The notes beneath the pieces were generated by a model. The model did not search any database. It was not told where the DNA came from and was given only the letters and a program-made list of their open reading frames with translations. From Marsupella aquatica (lineage: Eukaryota; Plantae; Marchantiophyta): DNA of 64,000 bases. The number at the start of each line of letters is the position of its first letter. Positions within the stretch are counted from its first letter, which is position 1. The stretch spans positions 9,970,184 to 10,034,183 of the forward strand of contig OZ316895.1 of NCBI GenBank assembly GCA_973895155.1, read 5' to 3'. Positions 1 through 64,000 of the stretch are shown one piece after another. Made by a program: the position numbers and the translations under genes.

Positions 1-2892
1 CTTCGATCCACCTCCTATGGACTGATCCTTTAGCTTGTATATCCAGTTGTTGTCCACCACTTGCTGTCCCTTAGGCAGCTTGACAAGCTCTCAAGTTTTG
101 TTGTCCTTCAGTGACTGCATTTCCGTTTGCATTGCTACAACCCACTCTTGCTTCTCGTTTGAAGCACTTGCTTCATGAAATGAAGAAGGTTCCCCTTCTT
201 CCAAAATCAACGCGTCACCCTCATCATCAGTAACAAAGTCCTCCTCTTGCAATTGAGATGAATCAACCCACTGTCCATACCTTGGTGGAGCGCGTACAGT
301 GCGACCAGATGCTCTTCTAGCCGATGACTTCGGTTGATCTGCGTGTGCTGGTACAATTTGAAGCTCAGCAGCATCCATTTGCTGCTCACCAACATCAACA
401 AACTCCTCTGGTTCCTCTGGCACAGAAACCAACTCCATAATTGGAGCAACTCCTTCTCTCCGGTCATGCACCTCATGACCAATCTCCCCCTCAACGAGAT
501 CCGGGATAGGAGATTTTCCTTTGTCAGTACGGGAGACCTGAGTATTCTCCCCCTCCTTCAATAATCTGGATTCATTGAAGGAAACATCCCTACTGACAAC
601 GAGCTTATAGGCAATAGGATCCCATAGCCTATAGGCTTTCACACCACTCTGGCACCCAAGAAAAACACATTTATTGGAGGTAGGATCCAACTTGGTCCTA
701 TTCTGCTTTGGTGTGAGAGCATATGCATCACTTCCAAAAACTACCAAGCCATGATAGTCTGCTTGCCGCTTATAGCGCATCTCAAACGGCGTTTTGAAAT
801 TGATAGCACTAGAAGGAGAAAGATTTACCAAATAAGTTGCGATATTGACAACTTCTGCCCAAAATTCTTGTGGTAAACCTGATTGGCTCAACATACTTCG
901 TGACCGCTCCAATAGTGTCCGATTGAGCCTCTCAGCGACACCATTCTGCTGCGGAGTATAAACTATGGTGAGATGGCAAATTATCCCCTGTTCTGAACAG
1001 TACTTTTCAAATTCCACTGAAGTGTACTCCCCGCCGTTCTCTGACCTCAAACTCTTCACCCTTGTATCCAAACACTTGACCGTGTTTCCAGTCTGATTCT
1101 CCATCTGGGTCTTCCACTTCTTAAAAATGGACAAGACATCAGACTTATGCGTCATGAAATAAATCCACACAAATCTTGAGTAATCGTCAATAAATGATAC
1201 ATAGTACAACTTTCCAGAGTATGAGGGAGTCGGGGATGGACCCCACACGTCACTATGTATATACTCAAGAACCGCTTTGGAACGATAAGTTCCAACACCA
1301 AAAGCACGACGATGCTGCTTTCCAAGAATGCAATGCTCACAAAACTTTAATTTACAAGATTGCAAATCAGAAATGAGCCCATTCTTCCGTAAGATAGCCA
1401 AACCCTTCTCACTCATGTGGCCTAGCCGTGAATGCCATAGTTAAGTCATCTCCCCGTGAGATTTGGTTACATTGGCCTCTCCACATACAGTATTGTCCTG
1501 TAACACATACAAATTCTTTTGTCTGCTCCCCTTCAAAATCACTGTCTCTCCCGACTTGACTTGAAGTTCATCATCAATAACGCTCCATTGATGACCATTT
1601 GAATCCAACACACCAAGTGAAATCAGATTCTTACGCATGTTAGGTACATACCTGACTCCGGACACTGTGCGTACAATGCCATCAAACATTTGAATCTTCA
1701 GAGACCCAATTCCCTCAATTTGACAGGAGTGATCATTTCCCATCAGAACTGAAAAACTCACGAATGTAACAAATATGAAAAGAGCAAGCACAATCAAGAA
1801 TCCATACATCATCTGCTCTCCTAGATGACGTGCACAGGGCATACTCCCGGCTTCATAAAACATACTCATCATTGAGTAAATCAGCTTCTCCATTAGCCCT
1901 AGCCACATTTGCCGATGAAGTTTTCGTTGCCTTTCCTTTACAGTCTCGCTTGAAGTGTCCAACTTGGTTGCACTTCCAACATGTCACCTACCTCCTTTGA
2001 GGGGATTTACCCCTGGACTTAGATCTGGATTTAGATCTAAACTGGGTTCTACGGTCCCCAGTTGGTCGTTACATACTCCTCCCACGGTAAACATTGAGAG
2101 CAGCACCAGATGATGAAGGCTGTGACGTGATGTGCATCTTCTGTTGAAGATCGTCACTAAGCAGAGAACTTACCACGTCATTGTATGAAATGGTATCCCT
2201 ATCACGATGCAACAACACTCGTGATAGGGACTGGTAAGATGGAGGCAATGAACTGAGAAGCTGCAGAGTCTTCGTCTCATCATTCAAAGTCTCTTCAAGG
2301 TTTTCCAAGTCAATGACCATGTCGTTGAAAGCATCCACATGGTCTTGCAACTTTGTACCGGATTCTTTCATCCTGAAACTCATCAGTTTGTAGGAAGTAT
2401 AGAGTCGGTTCGACAATTCTTTGCGGTGATACTTGCTCTGCAATTCCGCAAACAAGGACATGCAATCCTTATGTGCACCCAATTGCTTGATGATGGGAGG
2501 CATGAGATAGAGTGTAACACACCACACTCCCTGCTCCTGCATGCGGTCCCATTGTTTCTCATCAATATCGTCTTCATGAGGGCTCAGCAGTTGGTCCATC
2601 CCTGACGCATAGAGCACTCCCTTCACCTGCTTCTCCTATGCAAGTAGTCAGAGCGCCCATCATACTTTGTCACTTCATACATGGGTCCCCCAAGCTTGAA
2701 AGTCCCCATCTTCTTCTTTGGCACTACCGTGAGCTCCGGTAGTAGTAATGCTTCCTCCACCACACGCCGCATCGGTGATGGTATTGGAGTCACGTGCTCT
2801 TCCTCTTGCTCCTCTCTCTACCCCTCAAACCGCCGCGGTAATCCTCGTGCTTCAAGTTCCACATCTTCAAAAAACTACTCCGAATCACTCAT
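1..2892 (-). pseudogene. copia gag-pol polyprotein, disrupted by stops and frameshifts
   Basis: gag from ATG about 2892 (YEVTKYDGRSDY, LLSSLPPSY). CWKCNQVGHFKRDC knuckle at about 1940-1985. Integrase ORF 91-1416 has CEHCILGKQHR, HSDVWGP, FIDDYSR, PQQNGVAERLNRTL and KCVFLG. Several in-frame stops, e.g. TGA at 91-93 where W is expected. Confidence 0.93.
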
Positions 2893-3287
2893 ATGAGAAA
2901 ATCACAAAAATATCATTTTTCACAACTTCTCAAAAAACCGAAACTCAACACCGTCACATAGCTCACAAAGCTAGAAGTCCAATACTGAAAACCGAAATCA
3001 AAATCAAAATTTGACGGAAAAATTATTCAAATTTTGATCGAGGTGGGTAAAACCTTGGGAAACTCCCCCGTTTTGACCACCTCAGGGAATAACCAAAATA
3101 CCAAGTACAACCCATTGTCGGAATTGCAATGCAATCGGTGCGCCGTGTTGCCAACTTCAATGGCTACGACCTCACCGAAAAAGAACCAAAAAAGTTACTG
3201 TTCGGCAGACAAAATCTTTGTCGGACGACCAAAAAATAGCTCTCTATTTTTTGTGAATATTCCCGTATAGTCCGACAAGTCTCATAG

Positions 3288-17914: not shown

Positions 17915-20900
17915 GCTTGAATGCAAATCACAATGAACTTTAAGTCTCCACAGCTTCTGCTGCTGCAACATACTCTGCTTCTATAGTAGACTGAGATATA
18001 CACTTCTGCAAGGTAGATTTCCAACTGATACATCCTCCTCCAAGAGTAAATACAAACCCAGTTGTAGACCTCCTTGTGTCTAGACAGCCTCCATAGTCAG
18101 AATCTACATAGCCAACTAACATTCTATTTGATCTGTTATCAAATAGTAATCCATAGTCCCGTGTTCTCTTCACATACCTGAGAATCCATTTCACAGCTTC
18201 CCAATGTACCTTCCCTGGATTTGACATGAATCTGCTCACCTCGCCCATCGCTAGGGCTAAGTCATGCCTAGTACAAGTCATCAAATACATCAAACTGCCT
18301 ACTGCCTTCTCATAAGGACTCTTAGCCATCAAATCTTTCTCCATAGCATCCGTAGGATAGAAAACCGATGATAACTTGAAATGTGAAGCTAAAGGAATAC
18401 TCACTGGCTTGCAGTTCTCCATGTTGAATCGTGCAAGTACTTTCCTCGCGTACTGGCCTTGACTCAAGCACAACTATCCAGTATCAGAGTTCCTAAAAAA
18501 ATCCATCCCTAAGATCCTCTTGGCTTTACCAAGATTCTTCATCCTGAATTCAACACTCAATTTCGCCTAGAGACTGTCAATCTCAGATTGATCTTTAGCC
18601 ACAATCAGCATGTCATCCACATAGATCACCAGAATGATGAAACCAAACACATCATTTTTGACTGATTTTGTATACACACAAGGATCATACACCATCCTTG
18701 TAAAACCTTGAGCAAACATGAAATCATCAAACCGCTTGTTCCACTGTCTGGGAGACTGCTTCAATCCATACAAGGACTTGAGCAATCTGCAAACTAAGTT
18801 CTATTGGCCCTTCTTTATAAAGCCTAGTGGTTGTCTCATGAAGATCATCTCTTCTAAGTTGCCATAGAGAAAAGCAGTAACAACATCCATCTGATCCATC
18901 ACCAGACCAAAAAACACAACAAGTTGACACAAGATCCGAATTGTGGAATACTAAGCCACCGATGAAAAGACCTCATTGTAATCCACTCCTTTATTTTGAG
19001 TGAATCCCTTGGCAACAAGCCTTGCCTTGTAGATCTTGTCTCCACCCTCTAAAGGACTGTCCTTCAACTTGTAAATCCACTTGCTGTCCACCACTTGCTG
19101 ACCTCTTGGAAACTCCACCAGCTCCCATGTCTTGTTGTCACTCAAAGATTGCAAATCCCTCTGCATTGCTGCATTCCACTCATGCTTCTGCTCTGACGCA
19201 CAAGCCTCACTGTACGAAGAAGGCTCTCCTTCTTCCAAGATCAAAGCCATGTCACCATCATCAGATGCAATGTCAATATCATCTAGCTTAGATGAGTCTG
19301 CCCATTGACCATACCTGGTAGGAGCTCTAGTAGAACGACTGGAAGTTCTTCTAGTAGATGACTCAGGCTGATCTGCTGCTGCTGCTGGTTGAATTTGAGG
19401 TACCCCAACAACAATCTGCTTCTCTTGTTCCATCACAGGAACTAGCTCCAAGCCCGAAGCTTCTCCATCTCTCCTGTCATGAACAACATCATGACTAATC
19501 TCTCCCTCAACCCGGTCCGGGATGGGAGATTTCCCCTTGTCAGTATGGGAGTCCTGAGAACTCTCCCCCTCCTTTGATGATCTGGATTCATTAAAGGACA
19601 CATCTCTACTGACAATTAGTTTATAGGTTACTGGATCCCATAACCTATAACCCTTCACACCTTTCTGATAGCCAAGGAAAATGCACTTCTTTGACTTGGA
19701 CTCCAGCTTGGATCGAAGCTGGGAAGGTGTAAGCACATAAGCATCACATCCAAAAATCCTTAGATGTGAGTAATCTGCTGGACGCCCATACCTCATTTCA
19801 AATGGCGTCTTGAATCCAATAGAACTGGATGGAGAAAAATTTACCAAATAAGTTGCAGTGTTGACAACTTCAACCCAAAACTCATGTGGTAAGCATGATT
19901 GACTCAACATACTCCTCGAGCGTTCCAATAGTGTTCGGTTGAGTCTCTCAGAAACACCATTTTGCTAAGGAGTATAATTTGTTGTGAGATGGCAGGTAAT
20001 CCCTTGCTCCTTACAATACGTTCCAAATTCACCAGAACTGTATTCACCACCGTTATCTGATCGAAGATATTTCACCTTATTACCAGTCTGATTCTCAACT
20101 TGGGCTTTCCACTCCTTAAAAGTGGCAAAAACATCGGACTTATTGTGTAGAAAGTATATCCACACATACCTTGAGTAATCGTCAATGAATGTGACATAGT
20201 ATAACCATCCAATATGTGAGGGAGTAGGGGCTGGACCCCACACATCACTATGTACATACTCAAGTACCTCCTTGCTGGTGTGAGTTCCAACTCCAAAGGG
20301 TTTCCTGTGCTGCTTCCCTAGCACACAGTGCTCACAAAATTTTAACTTACAAGATTGCAAATTAGAAAGTAATCCTTTCTTCTAAAGAATAACCAAACCT
20401 TTTTCACTCATGTGGCCTAAACGGAAGTGCCACAGTCGGGCCGTCTCCTCATGAGATAAGGTTACATTGGCTTCATCACAGACTACACTGCCTTCCAAAA
20501 CGTATAGATTGCTATGTCTCTTTCCCTTCAATACAACTTTAGTACCAATTGAAACCTGAAGGACACCATTAGCAAAACTCCACTCATGGCCATTTGCTTC
20601 TAAAACTCTAAGTGAAATAAGATTTTTCATCATGCTGGGAATATGTCTCACATTCCTCAACGTTCTCACAACACCATCAAACATCTGAAATCTTACAGAT
20701 CCAAGTCCAACAACTTGACATGGGATTTCATTTCCCATCAACACTGACCCGTTGGAAACCGTGTAAGAACTGAAAAAATCTCTCCTAGAGCAAATTTGAG
20801 AAGTACATGCACTATCTAGAATCCAGTCATCACTACCTAGATTTGACACTACGTTGAGAGGATAACCTTGATATCACAATATGTCATCATCATCGAGTAA

Positions 20901-23799: not shown

Positions 23800-26700
23800 A
23801 TGACGACGGTGCTTCTGTCTACAGCAGCAGCAGCAGGCACGGCGTTGTCGTGCTCGACATCCTCCAGCAGCAAGGTGTTTCTCCAAGATGAATCGTTCTG
23901 TGTGGCATTTGGGGGGCGCCACAGCGGGCTAAGGAAAATGGTGGCCCAGAGAATGAATAAATCTCAGCAGCAACAACGGCAAAGAGGAGTAGGAGGAGTT
24001 CAAGCCAGCAGCATGAAGCCTCCACGCGTTCTGAGTGATACGGCGGAGGTTCTCCCGGTGTCTCCAGACGATCAAGGCTTCTACAATTCTGGCAGTCAGG
24101 TAACTTATTGGCAACCTTACTTCCTTCTTCTTCTCCAGACAAATTTCTCATACTCTACATGGGCGGCTTTTATTTGAAAGCTTGACTGAAATGCCTGCGA
24201 TGTTCAATATTATTGGGATTGATGGACGGACAATGTCCTGGCTGTTCACCCTCGTCTTGGAGCAAAATCGTCGGCCATGATATGGGCAAATGACGGGTGG
24301 ATCTCAATTTTGGATTGTCACCCCTCGTCCTGCCCACCAGTGACCGTCTGTAAACATTGTTGATGCAGACGTGTGCCTTTAATATTAGGAGCTTCTCAAC
24401 TTGGGATCCCCACCCCCCTCCTTCTCTTCTTGCCGTTGTGTTTTCTATTGCTAAAATTGGGATTGCTTCTTTTTGCTTTCGTTTCGCCATCCTGGTTACT
24501 AGGGAGCCAGCTATCTACACTTACGAAGCAATGTTCCTGAGTCTTTACATTGGCAGCTTCTCAATAGGGATTTTCCAACCCCCAACCTTCTTGCGGGCTA
24601 GCTAACTATAGAGCCAGCTAAATACATGAAGCAAAATGGTCCATGGTGTCACAAGGCTCATGGTGGTGGGCTTTCTCTTATTGTGGGGTGCCGTGTCTTT
24701 CTGGGAATTCAATCGGTGGGAATGAATTATTTCTTGAGCTTGGGGATTGAGAGACTGACCTAATTTTGGTTGTGTGAGGATAGCCGACAGTCTCTCTGGA
24801 GCAACTTCTGGCCATCCGCGATGGGAAGACTTCTGGAAGCATGTGGGTGAAGCCCAGTTTCCAGAGAAAGACCAAGATTGTTTGCACCATTGGTCCTACC
24901 TCGAACACTCGTGAGATGATTTGGAAGCTCGCCGAGGCAGGAATGAACATTGCCCGTCTGAACATGTCCCACGGAGACCATGCATCACACAAGAAGGTCA
25001 TTGATCTCGTAAGGGAATACAACGAAGAGGCTGGAGCTCATATTATCGGATTGATGTTGGACACAAAGGTATCAAGCTTTGTCTCACACCCTCTGCTGGT
25101 ATAGTTTTTGGGCATTGAAGTTGTCTCTTCCATGGGGAGTCGTTCTAAAATCTAATGCTCCCTAAAATATCGATACTTCTTTTATACCGCCTGCTTTTAT
25201 ATGTTCAGGGATTGCAATCTCTTGTCGCAACTATATGTAGAATGACAGGAAAGTAAGTCTGATAGGGAATAGACGGAAACCCAGATCCTGGGTCTAATTG
25301 GATTTTGGTGACAAGTAAAACCTCATGACAAATCCGAGCTGGATTCGCTGCTGTCGATTCTCTTTTACTTCGGACGTCCTCTAACTCTGAAATGGGGCGC
25401 ATTTTCAGGGTCCAGAAGTAAGGAGTGGAGATTTGCCACGACCAATCAAGCTTGATAAGGGACAAGAGTTTACGTTCACTATCGAAAGAGGCGTTGGGAC
25501 TGACACTTCAGTCAGTGTGAACTATGATGATTTCGTGAATGATGTTGCCAAAGATGACATTTTGCTTATTGATGGTATTTATCCCTCCATCCTTCTGTTT
25601 GCCACCACGGTTTCACGTCAACCTTCCGATCAAATATATAATCATGTTGGTGGACCAATCAATCCCTTCGTCGGTTTAGATTGCATTTATACGCTGGTTG
25701 TCCGTTCAGTTTGTACTTCAGCTGCCAATCGATCTTTTTGGCGAAGAAGTTCATATTATGGTGAAGGGTCATAGTTGGGTTGGGCGATGATGTTTCCAGT
25801 GTTGTAAGATTACTTCCTGGTTGCTAACTTTGGACCTGTTTGGTAACTCTGTTGTAAACCACAGGAGGAATGATGTCACTTCAGGTAAAATCTAAAACAG
25901 CAAAGGAAGTGCATTGTGAAGTGGTGGATGGTGGAGAGCTCAAGTCACGTCGACATTTGAATGTTCGAGGGAAGAGCGCAACTTTGCCTTCAATAACAGG
26001 CAGCTTCCTTATCCTAGTGCTCCAACCGTTCTTGAGACATTCTGTCAAACTCTTGCCTTGGCTCTTTTCAAAACTTTAGCAAGCTTATGTCGAGGTCTAT
26101 ATTCAGTCATCTTAGAAACATTCCCTTCACAATTTTGCTGGTTTGCATTGGACATACGTGCTAAACAAAAGTTGCGATCGTGAGAAAGATCGTGATGCGC
26201 CATGTCCTGATTCAGATCTTTGCACGTATTTTCTTTCAGATAAGGACTGGGATGATATCAAGTTTGGTGTTGAGAATAAAGTTGACTACTATGCTCTGTC
26301 GTTTGTGAAAGATGCTCAAGTTGTCCATGAGCTAAAGGACTACCTGAAAGGTACTTGACTTTGGAAGTATAAACGTTTGCTCTTGTACTATTTCGGCGGA
26401 TGTTTCAGTTGTTTGTCACCTTGCAATTTCCCTCAGTTCCTCTCAGTGGTGATAGTTGTCCTCTTAGGTCCGTCTCAAATCTTTGCTCCTGTTACTCTTT
26501 GCTTCTGGGTTTGTGTCCTGTGCTATCTCTGTTTCTCCTCCTCCATCACGAGAAATTCTAATGTTGTTTCGTTGATGTGGGGAGCAGCTCAGAATGCCGA
26601 CATCTATGTGATCGTTAAAATTGAAAGTGCTGACTCTATTCCTAACTTGCAGTCCATTCTTGAAGCTACTGATGGGGTGAGTTAGCAAACAGCTCCATTC

Positions 26701-51680: not shown

Positions 51681-52030
51681 GGGAACCGTTGAGGGAAAAT
51701 TCACCTTGTGCCCGATTTATACGGTTAACCAAATATGGCATGTCAAGCAGCAGGCAACGGCTTAGGGCTAATGAATGCTAATTAGTATTAATTATCCTCA
51801 AAATGACCTTTCATCCTTAATTATTTTTGCAGGTGGCCATTTTGGTTTTTCTACCCCCCCCCGATTGGACACCCTGGGGACCTTGTTGAGGCCCTTCCTA
51901 GCCTTAATTGGTTTTGAAAGGTCCCTGCCGCCCTTGGCAAAAACCTTAGCTGCTCTGCCTAGTTTGAATTTGGCGGCATATGTGTTGGCCAATGACGTAC
52001 GTAGTATGTACTCGGGGGGGGGGGGGGGGT

Positions 52031-54099
52031 CACTATATGGAGGGCCATACATTGCGTGCATGCAAAGTTTTAGGGTTTGACCCCCCTAACTTATAAGTGA
52101 GAAATAATCTTTTTGCAAAGCCTTTTCTTTTTAAAATTTTTGTCATTTTTTATTAAAAAACCTCTAAAAACTTTAAAGAAAGTATTTTTTGCAATTAAAT
52201 AGGCCTATGTGTTCTTTAAAGTTGACCAGTCAATAAAACATGCCCTATGTGTTCTTCCACCAAAATTTGGAAGTCTTCCACCACACCCATTTAAATGGGT
52301 CTATACTTCGTCACACGTGATGTGCCACTTCCGTGGAAGTGAACCCCCTGAGAGTATGTAGCTCAAGCGTGTGACACATCGGCGTTTGGAGTTTGCAAGA
52401 TGGTAATAGTTGGTTTGGGCCGAAAGCCGCTTCCAGAAATGGCTTTTCGAACCACTGGATTATTAGAATATTTTATTTTCCTACGGAAGAACCTGTAGGT
52501 TGTTCACTCACGTCCAAAAAGTTTTTGAGTCTACTTTTCCAGGTAATTTGTTGACACAAGGAAAAAATTGTGGTCATGCTATTTCAATAGAAAACAGTCA
52601 CATTTTCGTAGGCTAGGAGGTTTTTGAGAATTTCATGTCTGCAATTCCAGTTCTTCCCATTTCACATTACTTGCATATGTCTCCACCCCACTTACCCCAC
52701 AGTTTTTTCATTGTCGCATTTTAATTAACTCACCACTTAGTGCAATCTCAAGCTCATTTTGAGCCCTCCTGTACCTTTTCCCGCCCCCCTTCCGCTGCCC
52801 TTAATTAATATGTTTTGTGAGTGTAACTATCTATAAATGAACCCCAATTTTTGGTGGGATGTGTCTAGAAAGATTGCTGCCAGTAAGGTTCAACCCCACA
52901 ACTTGCCCTCCCGCATTCAAATGATCTACCACTGCACCAACATGTCCCATATGTTCAAGACCGCTCACAACTAGCATAGAAATTAATACTGGCGGGTAGT
53001 GCTTTCCTAATTAATCATACAGCCAATTAACTTAAATTAGCCTTGGGATTGCCTTTCATTCTTAACACATTCTAACCATGTCTGATCTAGATTGCCAATT
53101 TTCTTAATTTATAATTTTGTGTGCATGAGCCTAAGAAGTGTTGTGGTAGAGCAGGTAGATTTCAATGAAGAGAGTGGATAGCTTTCTTGATTCTCTAGGT
53201 GAAGGAACTGTGCAGTTTTGGTGATTGTGTGATCTTGCATATTCTCCCAAGTATGCACCTTTGTGACATCTCTAGCAAACTAAGTGCTTTGTATTTCACT
53301 TGTCAAGTTGCAATGAAATGAACTTTGATTTCATAAATTTAATTACTAGTTCATTGACCCCCCCCCCCCCCCCTTTATGTATGATTTAATGTTTGCAACT
53401 TACAAGAAGTGACACTTGGATTTCTCAATGACACACTCCTTGTAATTAAACAGAAAATCCTCCAAACTTTATGCACCATTCTTGTAACACGGCTTATCCA
53501 AAGAAAGTTATCTGCTTGGGGCCTCACTCCAAAGGGGCTCATATCATGCACAACATTCTTGGGTAATAAACACGGACCCTCAAATTAAGAAGAAATTGAA
53601 AACTAGTTCTACCCCTATTTATGGAACATTCTAAAAATATTCCTAGATTTGATTTAAAAATTCCCCTGAGTTCTTATAATTCTTAAAAGCACCCCTATAT
53701 AAGTCTTTCTCTATAGTAAACCCAATTATAACCCTATAATTCTCCATGCTTGATAGGTTGCACACAAAATTAGTGAGGACCCTGGGCTCCAATGTAAGGC
53801 CTAGAGGAGTTTATACATGGTGAAAGTAGTGCTAGTCTGGAGGGGTTTCAGTTCCACAAAGTGTCAGATCATGTGTGACAAAGCATATGGTTATTTTATT
53901 GGTTCTAAGGGAAAACTAAAAAACTTTATTGTCCGAAGAACATTAGGGTTTTTCAAAATCCAATTTCTCCATAATCATGTTTTGTAATGTTCCAAGAATG
54001 TTCTAGCTTAGTAGGGGTAGCAAAATAATATTTTCTCTTAAATACATTTTAGGAGGGAAGTCAAAATGTTGCAGGTGATGGGGAGGCCTCCATATAGTG
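52031..54099. mobile_element. Non-autonomous CACTA-type element (about 2.07 kb)
   Basis: Perfect 13-bp TIRs, CACTATATGGAGG (52031-52043) and CCTCCATATAGTG (54087-54099). Non-coding AT-rich interior. No 3-bp TSD recovered. Confidence 0.65.
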
Positions 54100-54485
54100 C
54101 CCGGTTTAACCTGACGGGCACCTTGACACCTTGTCGGGCATGTCAAATTGTCAAATGACGGCCCGAAAACGACCAATTTGATGGATATTCGATAAGATTC
54201 TCCCGAACTCACCCGAACCGACCCCGGACCCAAACCCAAACCCCCCCCCCCAGACCGCCTCTCCCTGGCCGGACCCTGAACCCGAACTTCCCCCCCTGAC
54301 CGCCCCCAAACCCAAACCCGAACCCGAACCCGGACCGCCCTCCCGGACCCCCCCAAACCCCCCCAAACCCGAACCCACCCCCCCGAACCCGAAATCAACC
54401 CCCCCCTGACTACTCCCGAGCCAGGGTGCCGGTTGCCGATTTGCCGGCCGTTTTCGCCCAGTTTGACGGGCAAGGTCAAACCGGG
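54100..54485. mobile_element. GC-rich MITE (386 bp) with 8-bp target-site duplication
   Basis: TIRs CCCGGTTTAACCT and AGGTCAAACCGGG. TSD ATATAGTG at 54092-54099 and 54486-54493. Internal CCCGAACC and CCCAAACC repeats. Confidence 0.85.
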
Positions 54486-56996: not shown

Positions 56997-58427
56997 AAGA
57001 AAAAGTGCAATCTCCACAGAATCAGCTAAATAATGACATATTCAATTGTTTTATTACAAATTTCATTTAAAGGTCGGAACCTGAAGGGAAAGGCCGGAAA
57101 ATTCCAGGCTGTTTCCCTTGAATATACTGCAAACGTGAATATCTTGTTTACTCATAATGTGCTTGAGGGCCTATTTTGAGGACCGTCTACATGCAAGATG
57201 ACCTTTAGTCATAGTCCTTATGCATACGGTTAAGGACCTCGGGTATCCCTTAAATGCAATATAAAGTCAAACATATATATGGTGACTCTATTTCCAGGAG
57301 GCATTTCAGCCCATTAAGGGATTACCCCAGATCGTTAGCTCTTAGTTCAGGTTGTCAAAGACTGATATCCCAAACATTATGCAAACCCAGCTACCCCAGG
57401 GGCAAACTTGATCAGCTACCAGACTGTGTAATGTAAGGTCCAATTTTAATGACATAGAATTTTTGGAAAGAGGGCTTGTGTATCTACTTGTGAGTGATCT
57501 AAAACCTGAAAGTAACCCTAGACCACCTTAATCTCATATATCATACTGCAAGGCAAGAAACCCAAGAAAAAGGGGAAAGCCACCATCAAAGTACCAAATG
57601 GAAGTTCAGCCAATTATCAGGTTGCTCCCCATTTTGTAAACCTGTTAGTTTAAGCAGACCAGACTAACCTAAGATGACAGGTAATGTTTGGCATTGGTAG
57701 ACCTGTGATTTTTACAAGCTAAAACATCACCCTATTCATTAAAACTGGAATTTCTCTAGTCCAGAAGTTGACCTTCAAATTTCTTATTTTACCCCCAAAA
57801 GTTCTATAACTTGTTCCCCAAAAGTATATATTTTAGTGGCCAAATATACACTTTTTGAGGTCTAAAATTACAATTCTAATGCCCAAATTATTAATTAAAT
57901 AATTCAGTTATCAATTATTAATACTTATTAATTAAAAGACAATAAAGTGTTCTTATTATATACAATATAAACAATGAAAAAATAGAATAAGACAATATAA
58001 TAAATTCAAATGACCCGTGATAACCAAGTTACACAAACAGGGAAGGTAAACCAGTGATGTATTATAAAAGTAAAAAACCTATTTTTACAGGGTCGAGACC
58101 ACGTCTGCCCCAATGCAGGCTCTAGATGGTTTTGACCGGTTGTTGAATGTATATCAATTCCTATGTAAAAATCTATGTCGAGATTATCTCGACCCAAATG
58201 TAGGGTCCACATAATTTTGACCCGTTGTTGAATCTATATTTCTAGCTATTCCCTTTGTATAGGGTCAAGACCCAAATAACCTTTTTCTGAGAACATATCT
58301 ACAAGTAAAAGAGGATCAACAGCATCTAGACTCAAATGGATAGTACGCATAGCTTCACTTATTTTTGAGTAAGAATATGTATATCTACAACTCACATTGT
58401 AACTATTCAGTGTAGGGTCGAGATAAT

Positions 58428-59702
58428 CTAGACCCAAATCTCATGCTCCTCCACCCCGCAGAATTCATTTGAGCAAGTAAATCTAGACCCTGACGGGTCA
58501 TATTTCATATCACGATTGCAGAAATTGAGAGGCTTCCTATTCCAGAACTTCGTGGTGAGGTCCCTACACCTCAAGACTTCCGAAACAAATCCCCGATGAT
58601 TGTCTCTGTAGGGTCCTGTGTACTGATATCCAATTAACGTCTTTGCAAGGTCGTTGATCGCCTCCTCTGTCAATTCCTCCATTGGTGGTAATTGTTGCAC
58701 TTCATTCTTGACATCCCAAGGAATTTTGTCCGCTGTGACATCCAAGACTGTATGGATAACTGAATGAACCCATATCATACTACCCCACCGCTCCGTCAAC
58801 AACGCATAAATGGCAGCCTGTTGATCTCTGTCCGCTAAAACATTTATCATAGACCACTTTGGATGATTGATAAAAAGGTAGTGCTGAAGATTGAAGGCAT
58901 GATACAATTTCCTGAGCATAGGCCATAGTATTTCTGGAAAGAATGTATCATCCGTGGAGTGATGCGAAAATGAGGAAGGAAACAACCCACAATTCTCTGG
59001 ATTCGCAAATGCCTTCATTGGAGTGTCATCAAGAAGGAGTATATTAGTTTCGTCGTATAATCCACCATAACGTTTCCAAACCACCCTCAAATCCTTCAAA
59101 TGAATATTTGCCTTCCCATCGGTAATGTCAGGCCTCTGGATTCCAATATCAAATGTATCTTCTTGTGTGAGAATAAACTTGAATTGCTCTCGCTCTTCTT
59201 GACTGAAGATCAAATGAATCATTTCATCCGTCCTGGGTTTCCTTGCACAAGTCCAAATGGCAACATCAAATAATGAAAAAGCTGCGATTAAGAACTCGTG
59301 AAGATGGGGTCGCTCAACATACATAAAGTTAAACCCTCCACGTCTCCCCCAGTGGACACCCTTGACACTTGTTGCACTACGGCGCGGATCGGAACTTGGC
59401 GTTTTGACAGAATCCCAACACATTTTGTTGAGGTCAAGAATCAATAGCTTCCGTCTGATCGGACCGTGAAGTGGAGGCAAGGGTCCTGCAAAGAAGGAAC
59501 ACCAATGTTAGAATTGTGGGAGATAAAACAAAGGAATGCTCGAGACGATCTCGAGCATAACAAGTGAATGAACAACAGTCAACGTCATACCTATTGTTGG
59601 TTGAAGGTCAGTAGTTGAAGAAATCTCAGGACATCTTTGGAGATTATTGTCGACGCACTCCACAACTGGTAAGGGCCCACCTATTTCTGTGAAGGTAGAC
59701 AT
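58428..59702 (-). CDS. FCP1/NIF-like HAD-superfamily phosphatase, 2 exons (59702-59591 and 59485-58428), apparently intact
   Basis: Phase-1 GTATGA...TTGCAG intron joins MSTFTEIG...PTIG to PLPPLHGPIRRKLLILDLN. Family motifs ERPHLHEFL, FDVAIWTCA, LKDLRVVW and NILLLDDTPMKAFANPEN. Cys/His-containing C-terminus. Confidence 0.8.
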
Positions 59703-59756
59703 AATAATTTAGACGGCTGAATTTCAGGACTGTTCAAACTAACTTGGGTTTCAACC

Positions 59757-62700
59757 TCACGTGTTGAAAGACCCAAATTCATTTAGAAGGTTATCTCCTA
59801 GTTGGTTTTGGATGTCCAAATTTATCCCTCCGGGAAGGGTCTCAACAAGAGCTGGCTCAGACCAAACTGGCACTAATTTGAACTTATCCTTCCTATACTT
59901 TCTAGATCGAATAATCTTCTCAGACTGCTCTATACTGACTTGTTGACCTTTTGACAGTCCATCAGTCCAAACATAATGAGTAGCACTTGCTTTGAGTGAT
60001 TTGTAACCAGTTCTACCAATTTTAGTCCCCGGTTTCCTAACAAAAGGGAGAATTACGGGGCTTCTAGTAGAAGAATCTGTGAAAACAAGCTTATTCTCTG
60101 AAGCACAAAACATTTGGTCCAAGGGAGATGACGATGCACCTGCCTCGTCCTGAGGGGGAGTATGGCAGCCACTAGCTTTCTTAGTAGAGAAAATCTCATC
60201 CAGTTGAGGAGGGCTTGGAATTGGTTGGCTAATTGCATCCTGCAAGGTGGATTCCCAGCCAACATCCAAGGTTGAAGACTGTTGTTCATGTTGTGCATCC
60301 CCAAGGCCACCCGATGAAGGAACACCTGGAACGTCGAGAGCATCTCGAGCATCATTTCCAAATTCAGGCAGTATTTCACCCTCCTCTTCCATGTAGCTTG
60401 TGATTTTCGGGCTCTCCATTTTTTGATGCTCTAAATTCTCCGCAAATACTTCCTCATAAACACTGGCTTCCACCGGAGCTATGTCTAAGGCTGCCTCTTC
60501 TATTACAACAAGGGGACCGGCAGTAATTTCCTCAGATGGTAACGGCTCCTTGGGTGGCACATATAAAACCTGCTTGTTGTCATGAAGGAGCTGAGCAAAG
60601 GCTTCTGTGAATTCCATCTCTTGAGCTGTGTCTGAATACACAAAACAATCACGACCAAGAATGACACAAGCTTTCAATGTCTGTCCTCCAGAGAAGAAAT
60701 CCAACACTGTATGACCTGGGCACGAGAAATAATCAACAAGACGCTTTGTCATTCGCAAAGGCTTTGCTCTCGGATCCAGCCACCACGCCGACCACGCCGA
60801 CCGACCATCTCATAAGATGGGGCCATCTTCTCCAAAACTTCGACATCAACAGTGGATTCATCGAGCTTGTCTTTCCCCTTTGATTGGTCTTTGTTGTTCC
60901 CAGTAGGGGCCTTCAAAGGCAAGACTGTGAAGTCTCTGTCCCACTTCTCACTGTAGTTCCAGAACGCATAAAAGTCATCAAAAAAAATTTGGGACTAGTC
61001 TGGTTCCTCTTCACAACAAATTCCCCCAAAGATGATTGAGTCTCGGGCTCCAATGAGAAAATCTCCCTTCTCCTTGGGCAGCTGATCACGGTAGTAGCTC
61101 CCGTACTCCAGCTTTGTGTGGACTTTCTTCTCATGACGAATCTTTTCAAAGGCACTCTGAATCTGGCCTATCAATGGGCCTTGACGGAAAAAAAAGATTA
61201 CTAAGAGCTCTGTCGAGTTCGCCATCTACAAACAATACTCCAGCAAGACAAAAATTTTGGCATCTGTCCACTGCCGTTGTCGAAGACGACCAAAATCGAC
61301 AATGGAGAGTGGGCACGTCCTTTGCACCGAGTCAACAATCTCAGGCTTCATTACATCCTCATCAAATTATCGCTAAAAAATATGCGATAAGTAGTATCCT
61401 CCATTGAAGGCAACCCGCCAAATACCTTGCAATATATCTGCTCAAGCCTAACAATGAGACTTTGCGGAAATGGGTCTTTTGGCCTATTTCTTTTTAGGAG
61501 ATTGGAAATCCAAACCTCTCCAGCAAGTTGTCTAAGTTTCGGCAACTCACCACGATCCATAAATGTAGGCAAAAATTGAGTTAGCTCAAACCAAGTGAGT
61601 GAATTGGCAAACCAATCCGGATACTTCAAAACAAAGTACTCCACAATTTTTGCCCTCAGCTTGGTCATGACTTTGAAAGTATGAGCCATATCACTCATTG
61701 ATTGAACATCAGATTTGTTGGTTGGGTCTTTCTTCAATAAAACCTTCTGTTGTTGAACGGCAGTAAAAACTTTCAGAATGTCGTCACTACTCAGGTCTCC
61801 TTCAAAGCATCTAAACAATGCCGGCGTAATCATTTTTGTTGTCCGGGATTTCCCATTTATTTTTGAACCTAACTCCCCTAGACCATCTGGAAGAAGTCCC
61901 TTGACCCAATCGATGCACATTTGTCTCCAAGTTCGGAAGAGGTTCTCATCCGAAAACAGCAACCAAAAAATATTCCTCAGATCGGATTTTCCAGTCGTTA
62001 TTTTGGCAAGGGCCATAAAATCCCGATCCAAACAGTACAAAGAAAATCTGAGGCTCGAGACGATCTCGAGGTAGAATTAAGGAACTATGGTAAAATTTAT
62101 GGGAAAATACATGAAGATAAATCAAATATAGAAACTTGACCTCGAGGCTCAAGACAATCTCGAGCTAGAAGTGGATTTGAGTTTGAATTTACCTGGAACT
62201 TTTGATGATCCGTTAGTCTATTGGACCCAATCACGGGTCTCTCCGGACGGCCACACTCGTCAAATTGTCGACGGGCATGGACCATAGTATCAAGAAAACA
62301 GGACTCATACTCCATGGTCTTATTAACAGCATTTGCCCTTTGTGAGTGTTGAGCAAGTATTATTCTTGGAGTTCTGTCCGAAAGAATTGCAGACTCTTCG
62401 CGACCTCCTTCAACTTTGCATCGCTCTTAGCCCAACCTATGATCCAAACAACTGCCTTTGCCGAGTGTTGTCCACTGATTGCAAGGAACTGCACCTTCTT
62501 ATTCTTAACACCCCACTCGAACTCCTTTCGATCCTCAGCAGTATTCTCATAATGGAGCAACTGCAAACTCTCTCTTGAATACGGAATTAAATCTGCCACA
62601 GCTGGTACCATTCCAGGGTTTCTAACCATGCATTTTGCGACCTCCATGGCATGGTCTTTATTGAACATCCTATATACCAAAACTGCAGACGGTGAATCTA

Positions 62701-63139
62701 TACTAGTGACAGGGATGTCAAAAGTTTCATTCATGCCAAATGTGTAATACTCCTCAATCTCCTTAAGAACTTCGGCTCCTTCCTTAACGCTCTTTTCTCC
62801 CAGAGCATCTCCTAGAGTGCCATCATCATCGGTATGTGCATTCACACCCGAGGAAGATGCCGGAATGAGATCTACCTTGGGCGGCGCGGACTTTTTTTGA
62901 GGTGGAGCCTTCTTCGCTTTGCTTTCGGGTTTCTCAACCCTCTTCCTCTTTTGAGACACCTTTTCTTCCTTTTTGTCCAAACCTGACGTCTTGTCTCCCG
63001 CAGCTACAGATTTCAATTTACCTGTTTGTCTCCGATGAGACAACACCCACTTTTTACAAGCATCCTTGTCAAATTCTCCGGCTCCAAACACAAAATCAGG
63101 GGATATGGATTCAAACTCCCCCAATTTGGATTCCGACAT
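59757..63139 (-). pseudogene. ParB/Srx-like domain fused to a beta-class DNA N4-C/N6-A methyltransferase-like domain, disrupted
   Basis: QFLAISGQHS ParB-like signature at about 62462-62490. DPRAKPLRMTKRLVDYFSCPGHTVLDFFSGGQTLKACVILGRDCFVYSD (about 60630-60778) matches the HPxxKP...LI...S..GD.VLDPF.GSG...GR motif X-I-II block. Intron 62192-62023. Frameshifts at about 62400, 61370 and 60790. Stops at 61226-61228 and 60995-60997. Confidence 0.72.
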
Positions 63140-63187
63140 TAGTCTCAAAACCTCCACGTGAAAGGAGTCGTGAATGCATCATCACGA

Positions 63188-63690
63188 TCAAACCCATATA
63201 TACTTTCGACAATAAAGGAATCCAAAAATTATGTCCGCTCCAGATATAGGAGTATCTTCTAGCAAATTACTTGTAGTAAAACCCTCGGGGAAGAACCCCA
63301 TTGATATCACGCTCAGTTGTTTCCTGGCTGCACGTTCAATGTTAAGATCGTAAGAGTAGTTTTTGGCGTGAAGTCTAATTAGAGCCCACTTCCCTGTCTT
63401 GTGGTTCTCCACCGTCAAAACCATGTCCTTACCGTTACTCGTCACAATAGAAACAATAGGCCCTAGAAGGCTGCACACTAGAGGATTGATTGATGGAGAC
63501 CCCGTCTTCACACAAATAATAGTTCTTTCCATGTCTTCAGTTTCAGCAAGCTCAATGGCCCAACAGAATCCAAATAAATCCTGTCCAGGGCAGGAAACCT
63601 CGATTGCATGTTCATCTTTGACTACCAAATTAGGCAATCCCAATTTTGCACCTGGTACAACCAAAATATAGCAATTGTCAGAAACATGTA
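63188..63690 (-). CDS. Last exon of an unknown protein upstream of the ParB-MTase gene
   Basis: About 165 open codons after a TTTTGTAG acceptor at about 63691. It ends about 50 bp before the next ATG. No recognisable motif. Confidence 0.45.
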
Positions 63691-64000
63691 CTACAAAACC
63701 AATAAACAAATAGGTGGCTCGAGATGATCTCGATCTTCCTTTTAAGTTTAATAGTCTGACATGTTCCAATGCCATTTCATCCGTGGAATTTAAAAAAAGA
63801 TTTCAAACCCAAGAAATCTAAAAAGATAACACAATAGTTAGGAAACACAATAGGCTCGAGATGATCTCGAGCCACCATCTGTTAAAAAGATCTCGATCCT
63901 CATATATATCAATTGAGGTTTTATTCCATTGCATATCATGAACCAGTCAAATTTAACGAACAACATTTTCAAGAATGATCCAATGTCACCTATTCGACCA

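What the first reader, a model, noticed from the sequence alone, without database searches (positions are those of the whole stretch)
58100..64000. Intron-containing ParB-like/DNA amino-methyltransferase plus HAD phosphatase cluster: candidate undescribed mobile DNA-modification system in a plant
Seen: three co-oriented minus-strand genes about 50 bp apart, far denser than the host genes. They are an unknown ORF, a roughly 1000-aa gene joining a ParB/Srx-like domain (AISGQHS) to a beta-class amino-MTase fold, and an FCP1-like phosphatase. Established: ParB-domain/amino-MTase fusions are typical of phages and bacterial mobile elements. Horizontally acquired beta-class amino-MTases make 4mC in Marchantia (DN4MT1) and bdelloid rotifers (N4CMT). 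Standard plant DNA methyltransferases are C5 enzymes. Inference: this is cargo of a large transposon or virus-derived element with its own DNA-binding or modifying module, extending past the window end.
Basis: partly seen in the sequence, partly recalled or inferred. Interest (0 to 1): 0.9.

Follow-up and report, generated by a model that had tools for sequence, protein, structure and literature searches.

The report
Plant transposon's disarmed ParB-methylase cargo
This is the broken end of a much-repeated mobile element, likely a DNA transposon of a liverwort-type plant, carrying one long gene predicted to join a bacterial ParB-like fold to a DNA-methylase fold that lacks the usual catalytic motif, plus a phosphatase-like gene; the long protein likely binds a palindrome that sits in the element's own introns, a design already described in algae.

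Summary
The cluster is real, but it is two genes, not three. Relatives read through from the 'unknown ORF' into the ParB-like part, giving one spliced gene of at least 1,240 codons: PH-like, ParB/Srx-like, helical and beta-class amino-methyltransferase folds (models of relatives; Z 7.6 and 14.2). An FCP1-like phosphatase gene follows. This copy is broken.

It is the end of a multi-copy element. Depth jumps about 30-70-fold at 57,726, where 19 of 26 listed junction contigs switch to other flanks. The transposase and other end lie beyond the window; no whole genome is held.

The methylase is probably not a standard writer: DFxR stands where (D/S)PP(Y/F) is expected in 10 of 12 relatives covering that site, and none has PPY. 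A palindrome, TCGAGA-N3-TCTCGA, occurs 8 times in the element (7 non-coding, in all three introns) and not at all in the other 57.7 kb.

Best reading: a transposon accessory protein that binds its own element, likely against silencing. ParB-methylase cargo is published for Ectocarpus Sola1-1 and red-algal Plavaka; I found no land-plant report. The scan has found this design many times elsewhere in this genome.

The parts
57726..64000 (.). Visible left part of a multi-copy mobile element; continues past the window end
   Evidence: Depth in run X1: 6.5-10.9 on flank contigs, 320-453 on single element contigs; a joint 57,814 to 62,608 in runs X1 and X2 shows an internally deleted copy
57726..57760 (+). 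Element terminus, reading ATCACCCTATTC; summed depth is higher still over the first ~35 bases, so shorter relatives may share this end
   Evidence: 19 of 26 listed junction contigs leave the window sequence just before 57,726 (5 in X1, 2 in X3, 12 in X4; 21 further loose-end rows not shown); sequence
58092..58439 (.). Subterminal repeats holding two palindrome copies (58,178 and 58,418)
   Evidence: Repeat families D5, D7 and inverted pair I14
58428..59702 (-). FCP1/NIF-like HAD phosphatase gene, two exons (59,702-59,591 and 59,485-58,428), 389 codons, open; first motif reads DLNKM; C-terminal cysteine cluster
   Evidence: Pfam NIF E 9.5e-17; UBLCP1 E 1.6e-9; splice sites read from sequence; relatives P0001-P0003 at 41-60% identity; motifs
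59757..62022 (-). Long gene, last exon: helical domain, beta-class amino-MTase fold (DFGR at 61,297 where the catalytic motif is expected; DFFSGG motif I at 60,701), acidic linker, conserved C-terminal segment. Broken by frameshifts near 61,355 and 60,790, two in-frame stops and a lost splice acceptor at 62,024
   Evidence: tblastn of P0076-P0078; fold searches; motif table; coordinates; other copies differ from the window at 62,024 and 60,779-60,790
62193..63651 (-). Frameshifts near 63,200-63,150 and 62,385
   Evidence: Relatives align through in one frame; model of P0004, mean pLDDT 81.6; ParB Z 5.6-7.6, PH/FERM/PTB Z 4-5
63652..63989 (-). Probable intron with two palindromes (63,719 and 63,856); the upstream exon and gene start are inferred to lie at and beyond 63,990
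   Evidence: GT...AG in matching phase; donor inferred from sequence only
62023..62192 (-). Intron with two palindromes (62,055 and 62,149)
   Evidence: Calypogeia gene models P0077, P0029 and P0090 join across it at the same place; an intron-like break at the same place in L029
59486..59590 (-). Intron of the phosphatase gene with one palindrome (59,540)
   Evidence: GT...AG, in frame
58178..63870 (.). Palindrome TCGAGA-N3-TCTCGA, 8 copies at up to 1 mismatch: 58,178, 58,418, 59,540, 60,334, 62,055, 62,149, 63,719, 63,856
   Evidence: 8 in 6,275 bases, 0 in the other 57,725, shuffle mean 0.03; 7 of 8 non-coding against 22% expected, P 1.5e-4

Best explanation
This is a decayed copy of a multi-copy mobile element, likely a large Sola1-type DNA transposon of a liverwort-like plant, whose long accessory protein, predicted to carry ParB-like and methylase folds, likely binds the element's own palindromes rather than methylating DNA, and so would help the element escape silencing or transpose. 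Shown: many copies, a sharp terminus, two spliced genes, lesions in this copy, the palindrome's enrichment and non-coding placement, and DFxR in place of the PPY motif. Predicted from models of relatives: the PH-like, ParB/Srx and beta-class MTase folds. Inferred, untested: a dimer reads the two-fold symmetric site, as ParB reads parS (recalled); the MTase fold serves as a DNA- or SAM-binding module; the PH-like domain and the FCP1-like protein recruit or modify transcription machinery, in the way VANC proteins act on VANDAL elements. Odds by step: mobile-element cargo about 0.92; MTase fold not a standard writer about 0.7; protein binds the palindrome about 0.6; purpose is anti-silencing about 0.45; Sola1 class about 0.6, resting on other readers' unchecked notes and not tested here.
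For: Multi-copy, sharp end and an internal-deletion copy. Several distinct paralogs in Calypogeia fissa (8 of 12 hits) and three in Riccia sorocarpa. Folds. DF[SGAT]R in 10 of the 12 relatives that cover the site, plus the window and L029, and no [DSNH]PP[YFW] in any stored relative. Motif I kept as DFFSGG in 9 of 10 relatives but one residue shorter than in M.RsrI. Palindromes in 3 of 3 visible introns and the subterminal region. Precedents: Ectocarpus Sola1-1 accessory protein, proposed to bind and modify its own element (PMC12477816, passages); inverted-repeat arrays beside the ParB-domain PAG3 gene (bioRxiv 10.1101/2025.02.11.637652, passages); VANC21 binds motifs in introns and terminal non-coding DNA (PMC5735166, passages).
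Against: No binding, expression or methylation data: no RNA holder was listed. No transposase, second end or target-site duplication is in the window. The register of DFxR against the canonical motif rests on strand order in a model that is only moderately confident there (pLDDT about 60-70); hhalign did not align that part. The ParB match is modest (Z under 8). The palindrome pattern was chosen from these same sites, so the shuffle test overstates it. One copy lies in coding DNA. L029, a distant relative, has no copy of this palindrome in 1.8 kb. Strong conservation of motif I leaves an unusual catalytic activity open.
Confidence: 0.5

Rival explanations
1. The protein is an active but atypical amino-methyltransferase that marks its own element with 6mA or 4mC, possibly at the TCGA halves of the palindrome.
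For: Full beta-class fold; motif I nearly invariant; the Asp of the presumed motif IV is kept; N4CMT's closest bacterial homologs recognise TCGA (PMC8885841, passage); the Ectocarpus authors predict such activity for their protein.
Against: No PPY-type motif in any relative, while SPPY is required in N4CMT and DN4MT1 has TSPPY; the glycine loop of motif I is one residue short.
Confidence: 0.2
2. The accessory protein is a transposition helper, like TnpA of CACTA elements (recalled): it binds the palindromes to bring the ends together or to regulate the element's own promoters, with no role against silencing.
For: Two palindromes sit in subterminal repeats within 700 bases of the end; ParB-type proteins bridge and slide on DNA (recalled).
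Against: Five of 8 sites are in introns 1.8-6.1 kb from the end, which matches the VANC pattern better than end-binding.
Confidence: 0.2
3. The carrier is a Helitron whose 5' end is at 57,727 (A|TC), not a cut-and-paste transposon. This changes the vehicle, not the cargo.
For: Most junctions share the A before TC, which fits the Helitron rule of 5' TC inserted after A (PMC4683698, passages); an unchecked note reports a Helitron with ParB cargo in this genome (e1-10635230).
Against: Sola1-1_Ec32 has termini starting with A and a duplication biased to end in A (supplement row), so A|TC is not diagnostic; notes on elements with this three-part cargo in the same genome mostly report Sola-like transposases.
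Confidence: 0.25
4. An endogenous virus fragment, or an ordinary single-copy host gene cluster.
For: Best structural neighbours in the viral library include phage and Pandoravirus methyltransferases, at 8-14% identity.
Against: No sequence relative in viral or prokaryote collections; spliceosomal-type introns; many copies with different flanks.
Confidence: 0.04

Closest known systems
Accessory protein of Ectocarpus Sola1-1_Ec32 (PMC12477816; passages, reference-list passages and supplement rows seen; figures and sequences not seen)
   Same: Large transposon-borne protein (1104 aa there) with a ParB-like domain and an N4C/N6A methyltransferase domain, proposed to bind its own element
   Different: Brown alga versus land plant. 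Here the catalytic motif is replaced family-wide, there is an N-terminal PH-like domain, an FCP1-like gene follows, and palindromes sit in introns. I could not align the Ectocarpus protein, so homology and the state of its motif are untested.
Plavaka accessory genes PAG2 and PAG3 of red algae (bioRxiv 10.1101/2025.02.11.637652; passages seen, supplements closed)
   Same: Giant DNA transposons with an N6-methylase gene and a ParB-domain gene beside arrays of inverted repeats
   Different: There ParB is fused to a 2OG oxygenase and the methylase to a SET domain, in separate genes; here ParB and the methylase fold are one protein.
VANC proteins of Arabidopsis VANDAL elements (PMC5735166; passages seen)
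   Same: Element-encoded protein with short target motifs in introns and terminal non-coding DNA: the functional analogy
   Different: Homology to VANC was not tested; VANC motifs are tandem and same-orientation, these are dispersed palindromes; binding is shown there, only inferred here.
Marchantia DN4MT1 (bioRxiv 10.1101/2021.02.12.428880; passages) and bdelloid N4CMT (PMC8885841; passages)
   Same: Beta-class amino-MTase fold in a eukaryote (N4CMT structure matched at Z 11.9)
   Different: Both are active host enzymes with SPPY; DN4MT1 has no extra domains. This one is multi-copy element cargo without the motif.
Beta-class prokaryotic and phage MTases (CcrM, M.MboII, M.RsrI) and phage ParB-terminase-locus MTases (PMC4738411; passages)
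   Same: Fold and motif order; probable remote source of the domains
   Different: 8-21% structural identity; no close prokaryote or phage relative found, so no donor can be named.
FCP1/SCP/UBLCP1 (NIF) HAD phosphatases
   Same: Pfam NIF above cut-off; first Asp and the DD motif present
   Different: Second Asp of DxDx(T/V) is Asn (DLNK) in the window and in 2 of 2 relatives covering it; added cysteine-rich tail.

Membership tests
Beta-class DNA amino-methyltransferase | Rossmann-like fold with catalytic region before the SAM-binding motif I | tested here: met
   Model of relative P0077: CcrM Z 14.2, rmsd 4.1, 194 aligned; 11 beta-class or Type III MTases at Z 11.3-14.2; M.RsrI E 2.7e-7 at the C-terminal motif I
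Beta-class DNA amino-methyltransferase | Catalytic motif IV (D/S/N)PP(Y/F/W) | tested here: not met
   DF[SGAT]R in 10 of 12 covering relatives, window DFGR; no PPY-type motif in any stored relative or in three minus-strand frames of the element. Exact register is from strand order.
Beta-class DNA amino-methyltransferase | SAM-binding motif I FxGxG | tested here: inconclusive
   DFFSGG in 9 of 10 covering relatives, one residue shorter than M.RsrI
Beta-class DNA amino-methyltransferase | Methyl transfer to DNA | not testable with these tools
   Needs an assay or long-read kinetics
ParB/Sulfiredoxin superfamily | ParB/Srx fold | tested here: met
   Top 7 VIA rows are ParB-like, PadC, KorB, SerK, Srx, SbnI, Atu1540 at Z 5.6-7.6; top Foldseek rows Noc/ParB/PadC, best E 3.9e-3; Atlas neighbours with DUF3723 14% and ParB_N 11%. 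Modest scores.
ParB CTPase clamp | Arginine patch GxxR of the nucleotide site (recalled) | tested here: not met
   GQHS 40, GQHL 2, GQHT 2, RQHS 1 of 45 relatives that match the pattern; none has Arg at the fourth place
ParB CTPase clamp | Helix-turn-helix domain that binds a palindromic site | tested here: inconclusive
   A confident helical domain follows ParB but the fold-search rows covered the MTase part; it was not folded alone
FCP1/SCP HAD phosphatase | NIF domain profile | tested here: met
   Pfam PF03031 61.6 bits against 21.8
FCP1/SCP HAD phosphatase | DxDx(T/V) catalytic motif (recalled) | tested here: not met
   DLNKM in the window, DLNKI in P0001 and P0075
Transposable element (any class) | Many dispersed copies with one sharp end and different flanks | tested here: met
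Sola1 DNA transposon | Sola-type DDE transposase | not testable with these tools
   Would lie beyond 64,000; no genome held; no long relative contig found
Sola1 DNA transposon | Terminal inverted repeats and a 4-base target duplication (AWWT/AWDT in insects, PMC3845634; ending in A in Ectocarpus) | tested here: inconclusive
   Only one end is visible; the flank is not AWWT under either placement of the end, but fits a duplication ending in A
Helitron | 5' TC inserted after A | tested here: inconclusive
   A|TC at 57,726-57,728 fits but is not diagnostic
Helitron | RepHel gene, 3' hairpin and CTRR end | not testable with these tools
   Beyond the window
PlavakaB (termini CATCA, PMC12730594) | 5'-CATCA terminus | tested here: not met
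   The window reads CATCA at 57,725, but 19 of 26 listed junction contigs do not share the C

The most novel reading that the evidence does not exclude
Liverwort transposons carry a phage-derived, parS-like self-recognition system. A ParB-pseudomethylase dimer loads on family-specific palindromes in the element's introns and, with a PH-like domain and an FCP1-like partner, keeps RNA polymerase II on the element and host CG methylation off it. Alternatively, DFxR is a new active site that writes 4mC or 6mA at TCGA. Either would be a second, independently evolved sequence-specific anti-silencing system in land plants.
Probability: 0.3. Interest if true: 0.8.

Novelty: new variant of a known kind. 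Interest (0 to 1): 0.48.

Why it matters
How transposons evade host methylation is well worked out in plants mainly for VANDAL/VANC. ParB-methylase cargo on algal transposons has been proposed to do the same job but, in the passages I read, is untested. This family puts the design in liverwort relatives and supplies a concrete candidate site, so binding and methylation can be tested directly. The family-wide loss of the catalytic motif suggests a writer turned reader. The basic architecture is published, and this copy is dead and truncated by the window, so better copies elsewhere in the genome are the ones to study.

Tried and rejected
Whole-genome work was impossible: no genome is held.

Viral origin: no relative in IMG/VR by phosphatase, ParB or MTase queries, none in GTDB, none in GenBank phages for the ParB part, and only E 0.2-1 motif-I hits for the MTase. 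These pattern scans are insensitive to distant relatives. 22 IMG/VR loci hold one exact palindrome each; none is related to the element by tblastn or blastn.

Looking for the transposase: metagenome scans gave nothing and one 1.8-kb contig.

Expression: no RNA holder listed; this is no evidence either way.

Motif IV register: hhalign of 6 family members against 6 phage MTases aligned only motif I (prob 94%) and did not fix motif IV.

Pfam ParBc: no hit in 46 relatives; DndB weak in 2 of 46.

Empty insertion site: none seen in the contigs laid.

Splicing of the MTase gene into the phosphatase: a GT donor-like site overlaps the MTase stop, but checking three nearby acceptors by eye gave no in-frame join; fusion in intact copies stays open.

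PlavakaB terminus rejected. A tree with DN4MT1 and N4CMT was not built because their sequences were not held.

Literature searches for a land-plant report found only the algal papers. The library lacks most subscription journals. Iyer et al. 2011, apparently the Ectocarpus paper's source for the green-algal case, and Repbase were not seen. Bostrychia Supplemental Table 6 (closed) may list relevant elements.
Full report
OBSERVATION. The minus strand from 63,651 to 58,428 is dense coding DNA broken by stops and frameshifts. Pfam confirms an NIF/FCP1-like phosphatase (E 9.5e-17) and a borderline N6_N4_Mtase hit (E 6.9e-6, 26.6 bits against 26.7); the other seven ORF pieces tested had no significant family. 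A search of cluster representatives with the ParB-containing ORF gave 63 hits at E<=0.001, one of them (P0044) an unrelated repeat protein. Six relatives align in one frame from about 63,670-63,560 through the stop at 63,190 to 62,369, and so does Calypogeia P0091. P0076-P0078 cover the last exon in three frames, and Calypogeia gene models join across the 62,192-62,023 intron. The two visible exons hold 1,240 codons; a probable further intron runs to 63,989, so the start lies at or beyond the window edge. The phosphatase gene has two exons and 389 open codons.

FOLDS. The window copy is broken, so relatives were folded. P0004 (46-sequence alignment, mean pLDDT 81.6) has two domains. Residues about 305-490 match ParB/Srx proteins: the top 7 VIA rows at Z 5.6-7.6 and the top Foldseek rows, though none reached E 0.001. 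Residues about 15-166 match PH/FERM/PTB folds at Z 4-5, which is weak. P0077 (8-sequence alignment, mean pLDDT 51.5) matches beta-class amino-MTases: CcrM Z 14.2, M.MboII 13.7, rotifer N4CMT 11.9; Foldseek 32 matches at E<=0.001.

CATALYTIC MOTIFS. In the P0077 model the first core strand of the MTase (273-279) ends in Asp, where motif IV is expected. Of 16 relatives aligned, 12 cover this site: 10 read DF[SGAT]R, one reads DLIA and one Riccia model has no match; four do not reach it. The window reads DFGR and L029 DFAR. No stored relative has a (D/S/N/H)PP(Y/F/W) motif. DN4MT1 has TSPPY and N4CMT needs SPPY. Motif I is kept as DFFSGG in 9 of 10 covering relatives but is one residue shorter than in M.RsrI. 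Profile alignment could not fix the motif IV register, so that step rests on a moderately confident model. The ParB motif reads GQHS in 40 of 45 matching relatives, never with the arginine of ParB CTPases (canonical motif recalled). The phosphatase has DLN in place of DxD (canonical motif recalled). All three enzyme-like parts thus deviate from their standard active sites across relatives, not only in this decayed copy.

MOBILE ELEMENT. No genome is held, so assembled contigs of public runs were laid on the window. In run X1 the flank contigs have depth 6.5-10.9 and single element contigs 320-453, roughly 30-70-fold more; depth is only a rough guide to copy number. The step falls at 57,726: 19 of 26 listed junction contigs leave the window sequence there, with low consensus agreement (0.43-0.62), meaning different flanks; 21 further loose-end rows were not shown. 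A contig in two runs joins 57,814 to 62,608, an internally deleted copy. Run X5, under another organism label, holds diverged copies but little of the flank. Other copies differ from the window at several lesion sites, such as 62,024, 63,152 and 60,779-60,790. X1 may be the window's own source; the four runs per call come from three studies. Named relatives are from liverworts: Calypogeia fissa (8 of 12 hits) and Riccia sorocarpa. At about 39% identity they suggest a liverwort-like host but do not identify it.

CLASS OF ELEMENT. Only one end is visible. It reads A|TCACCC, which fits the Helitron 5' rule. It also fits Sola1, whose Ectocarpus member has termini beginning with A and a duplication biased to end in A. 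The insect Sola1 target AWWT is not met. PlavakaB's CATCA is matched by the window but not by most junctions. Unchecked notes from this scan describe many 12-21 kb elements in the same genome with this three-part cargo beside a Sola-like transposase, and others with Mutator or Helitron carriers. I lean to Sola1 (about 0.6) on those notes alone; look-ups by sequence found none of those elements as look-alikes.

PALINDROME. Repeat finding picked out a family in the introns and subterminal region. TCGAGA-N3-TCTCGA occurs 6 times exactly and 8 times with up to one mismatch in 6,275 bases, never in the other 57,725, and 0.03 times per shuffle. The pattern was drawn from these sites, so the shuffle figure is generous. 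Seven of 8 are non-coding where 22% of the element is (P 1.5e-4), and all three visible introns have one or two.

MECHANISM. The simplest joint reading is an element-encoded protein that recognises its own DNA. A two-fold symmetric site suits a ParB-like dimer (recalled). The placement matches VANC21, which binds motifs in introns and terminal non-coding DNA and lifts silencing. A methylase fold without its catalytic motif could still grip DNA or SAM. The PH-like domain and FCP1-like protein could link to polymerase II; this last step is speculation. Rivals are an atypical active methylase (0.2) and a transposition helper (0.2). Nothing here shows binding, expression or activity.

KNOWN AND NEW. 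[quoted passage not shown] The Bostrychia preprint describes ParB and N6-methylase cargo with inverted-repeat arrays. Both papers first appeared as listings in my own search; I read them after the scan's notes named them. Four searches found no land-plant report, within a library that lacks most subscription journals. No viral or prokaryotic sequence relative was found, so the prokaryotic origin is remote and no donor can be named. New here are the land-plant host, the family-wide motif replacement, the PH-like N-terminus, the phosphatase partner and a defined candidate site.

PAPERS SEEN. Passages only: PMC4738411, 10.1101/2021.02.12.428880, PMC8885841, 10.1101/2025.02.11.637652, PMC3845634, PMC4683698, PMC5735166. 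PMC12730594: part 2 of 7 plus passages. PMC12477816: passages, reference-list passages and supplement rows.

VERDICT. Real, partly misparsed, and a new variant of a published kind. Interest 0.48.

Noticed in passing
window 52,028-54,102: A 33-base inverted repeat pair beginning CACTATATGGAGG, both ends at very high depth (45 junction contigs at 54,099 in X1): a separate CACTA-like non-autonomous element or two element ends. A C-rich tandem tract follows at 54,208-54,422.
   Followed up: partly
window 57,726-57,760: Summed depth over the first ~35 bases of the element is about six times that of its interior in run X1 (2,600-3,200 against about 440), suggesting short non-autonomous relatives share this end.
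   Followed up: no
window 58,430-58,520: The phosphatase ends in a cysteine cluster, C-x14-C-x4-C-x2-(C/H) or close to it in six relatives, a possible zinc site; the window copy lacks the last Cys/His at that spacing.
   Followed up: partly
window 59,760-60,150: A conserved C-terminal segment of the long protein (about 130 residues, 32-48% identical in relatives) after the acidic linker; low confidence in the model and no family found.
   Followed up: no
window 91-2,635 and 17,940-20,873: Two decayed Ty1/copia-type retrotransposon coding regions (integrase, SH3, reverse transcriptase hits).
   Followed up: partly
window 51,798-52,085: Short piece with a group II intron maturase domain hit (PF01348, E 1.4e-4), probably organelle-derived.
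   Followed up: no
window 25,391-25,774: Host exon of a pyruvate kinase (Pfam PK E 0.001); ordinary plant host genes lie left of the element.
   Followed up: partly
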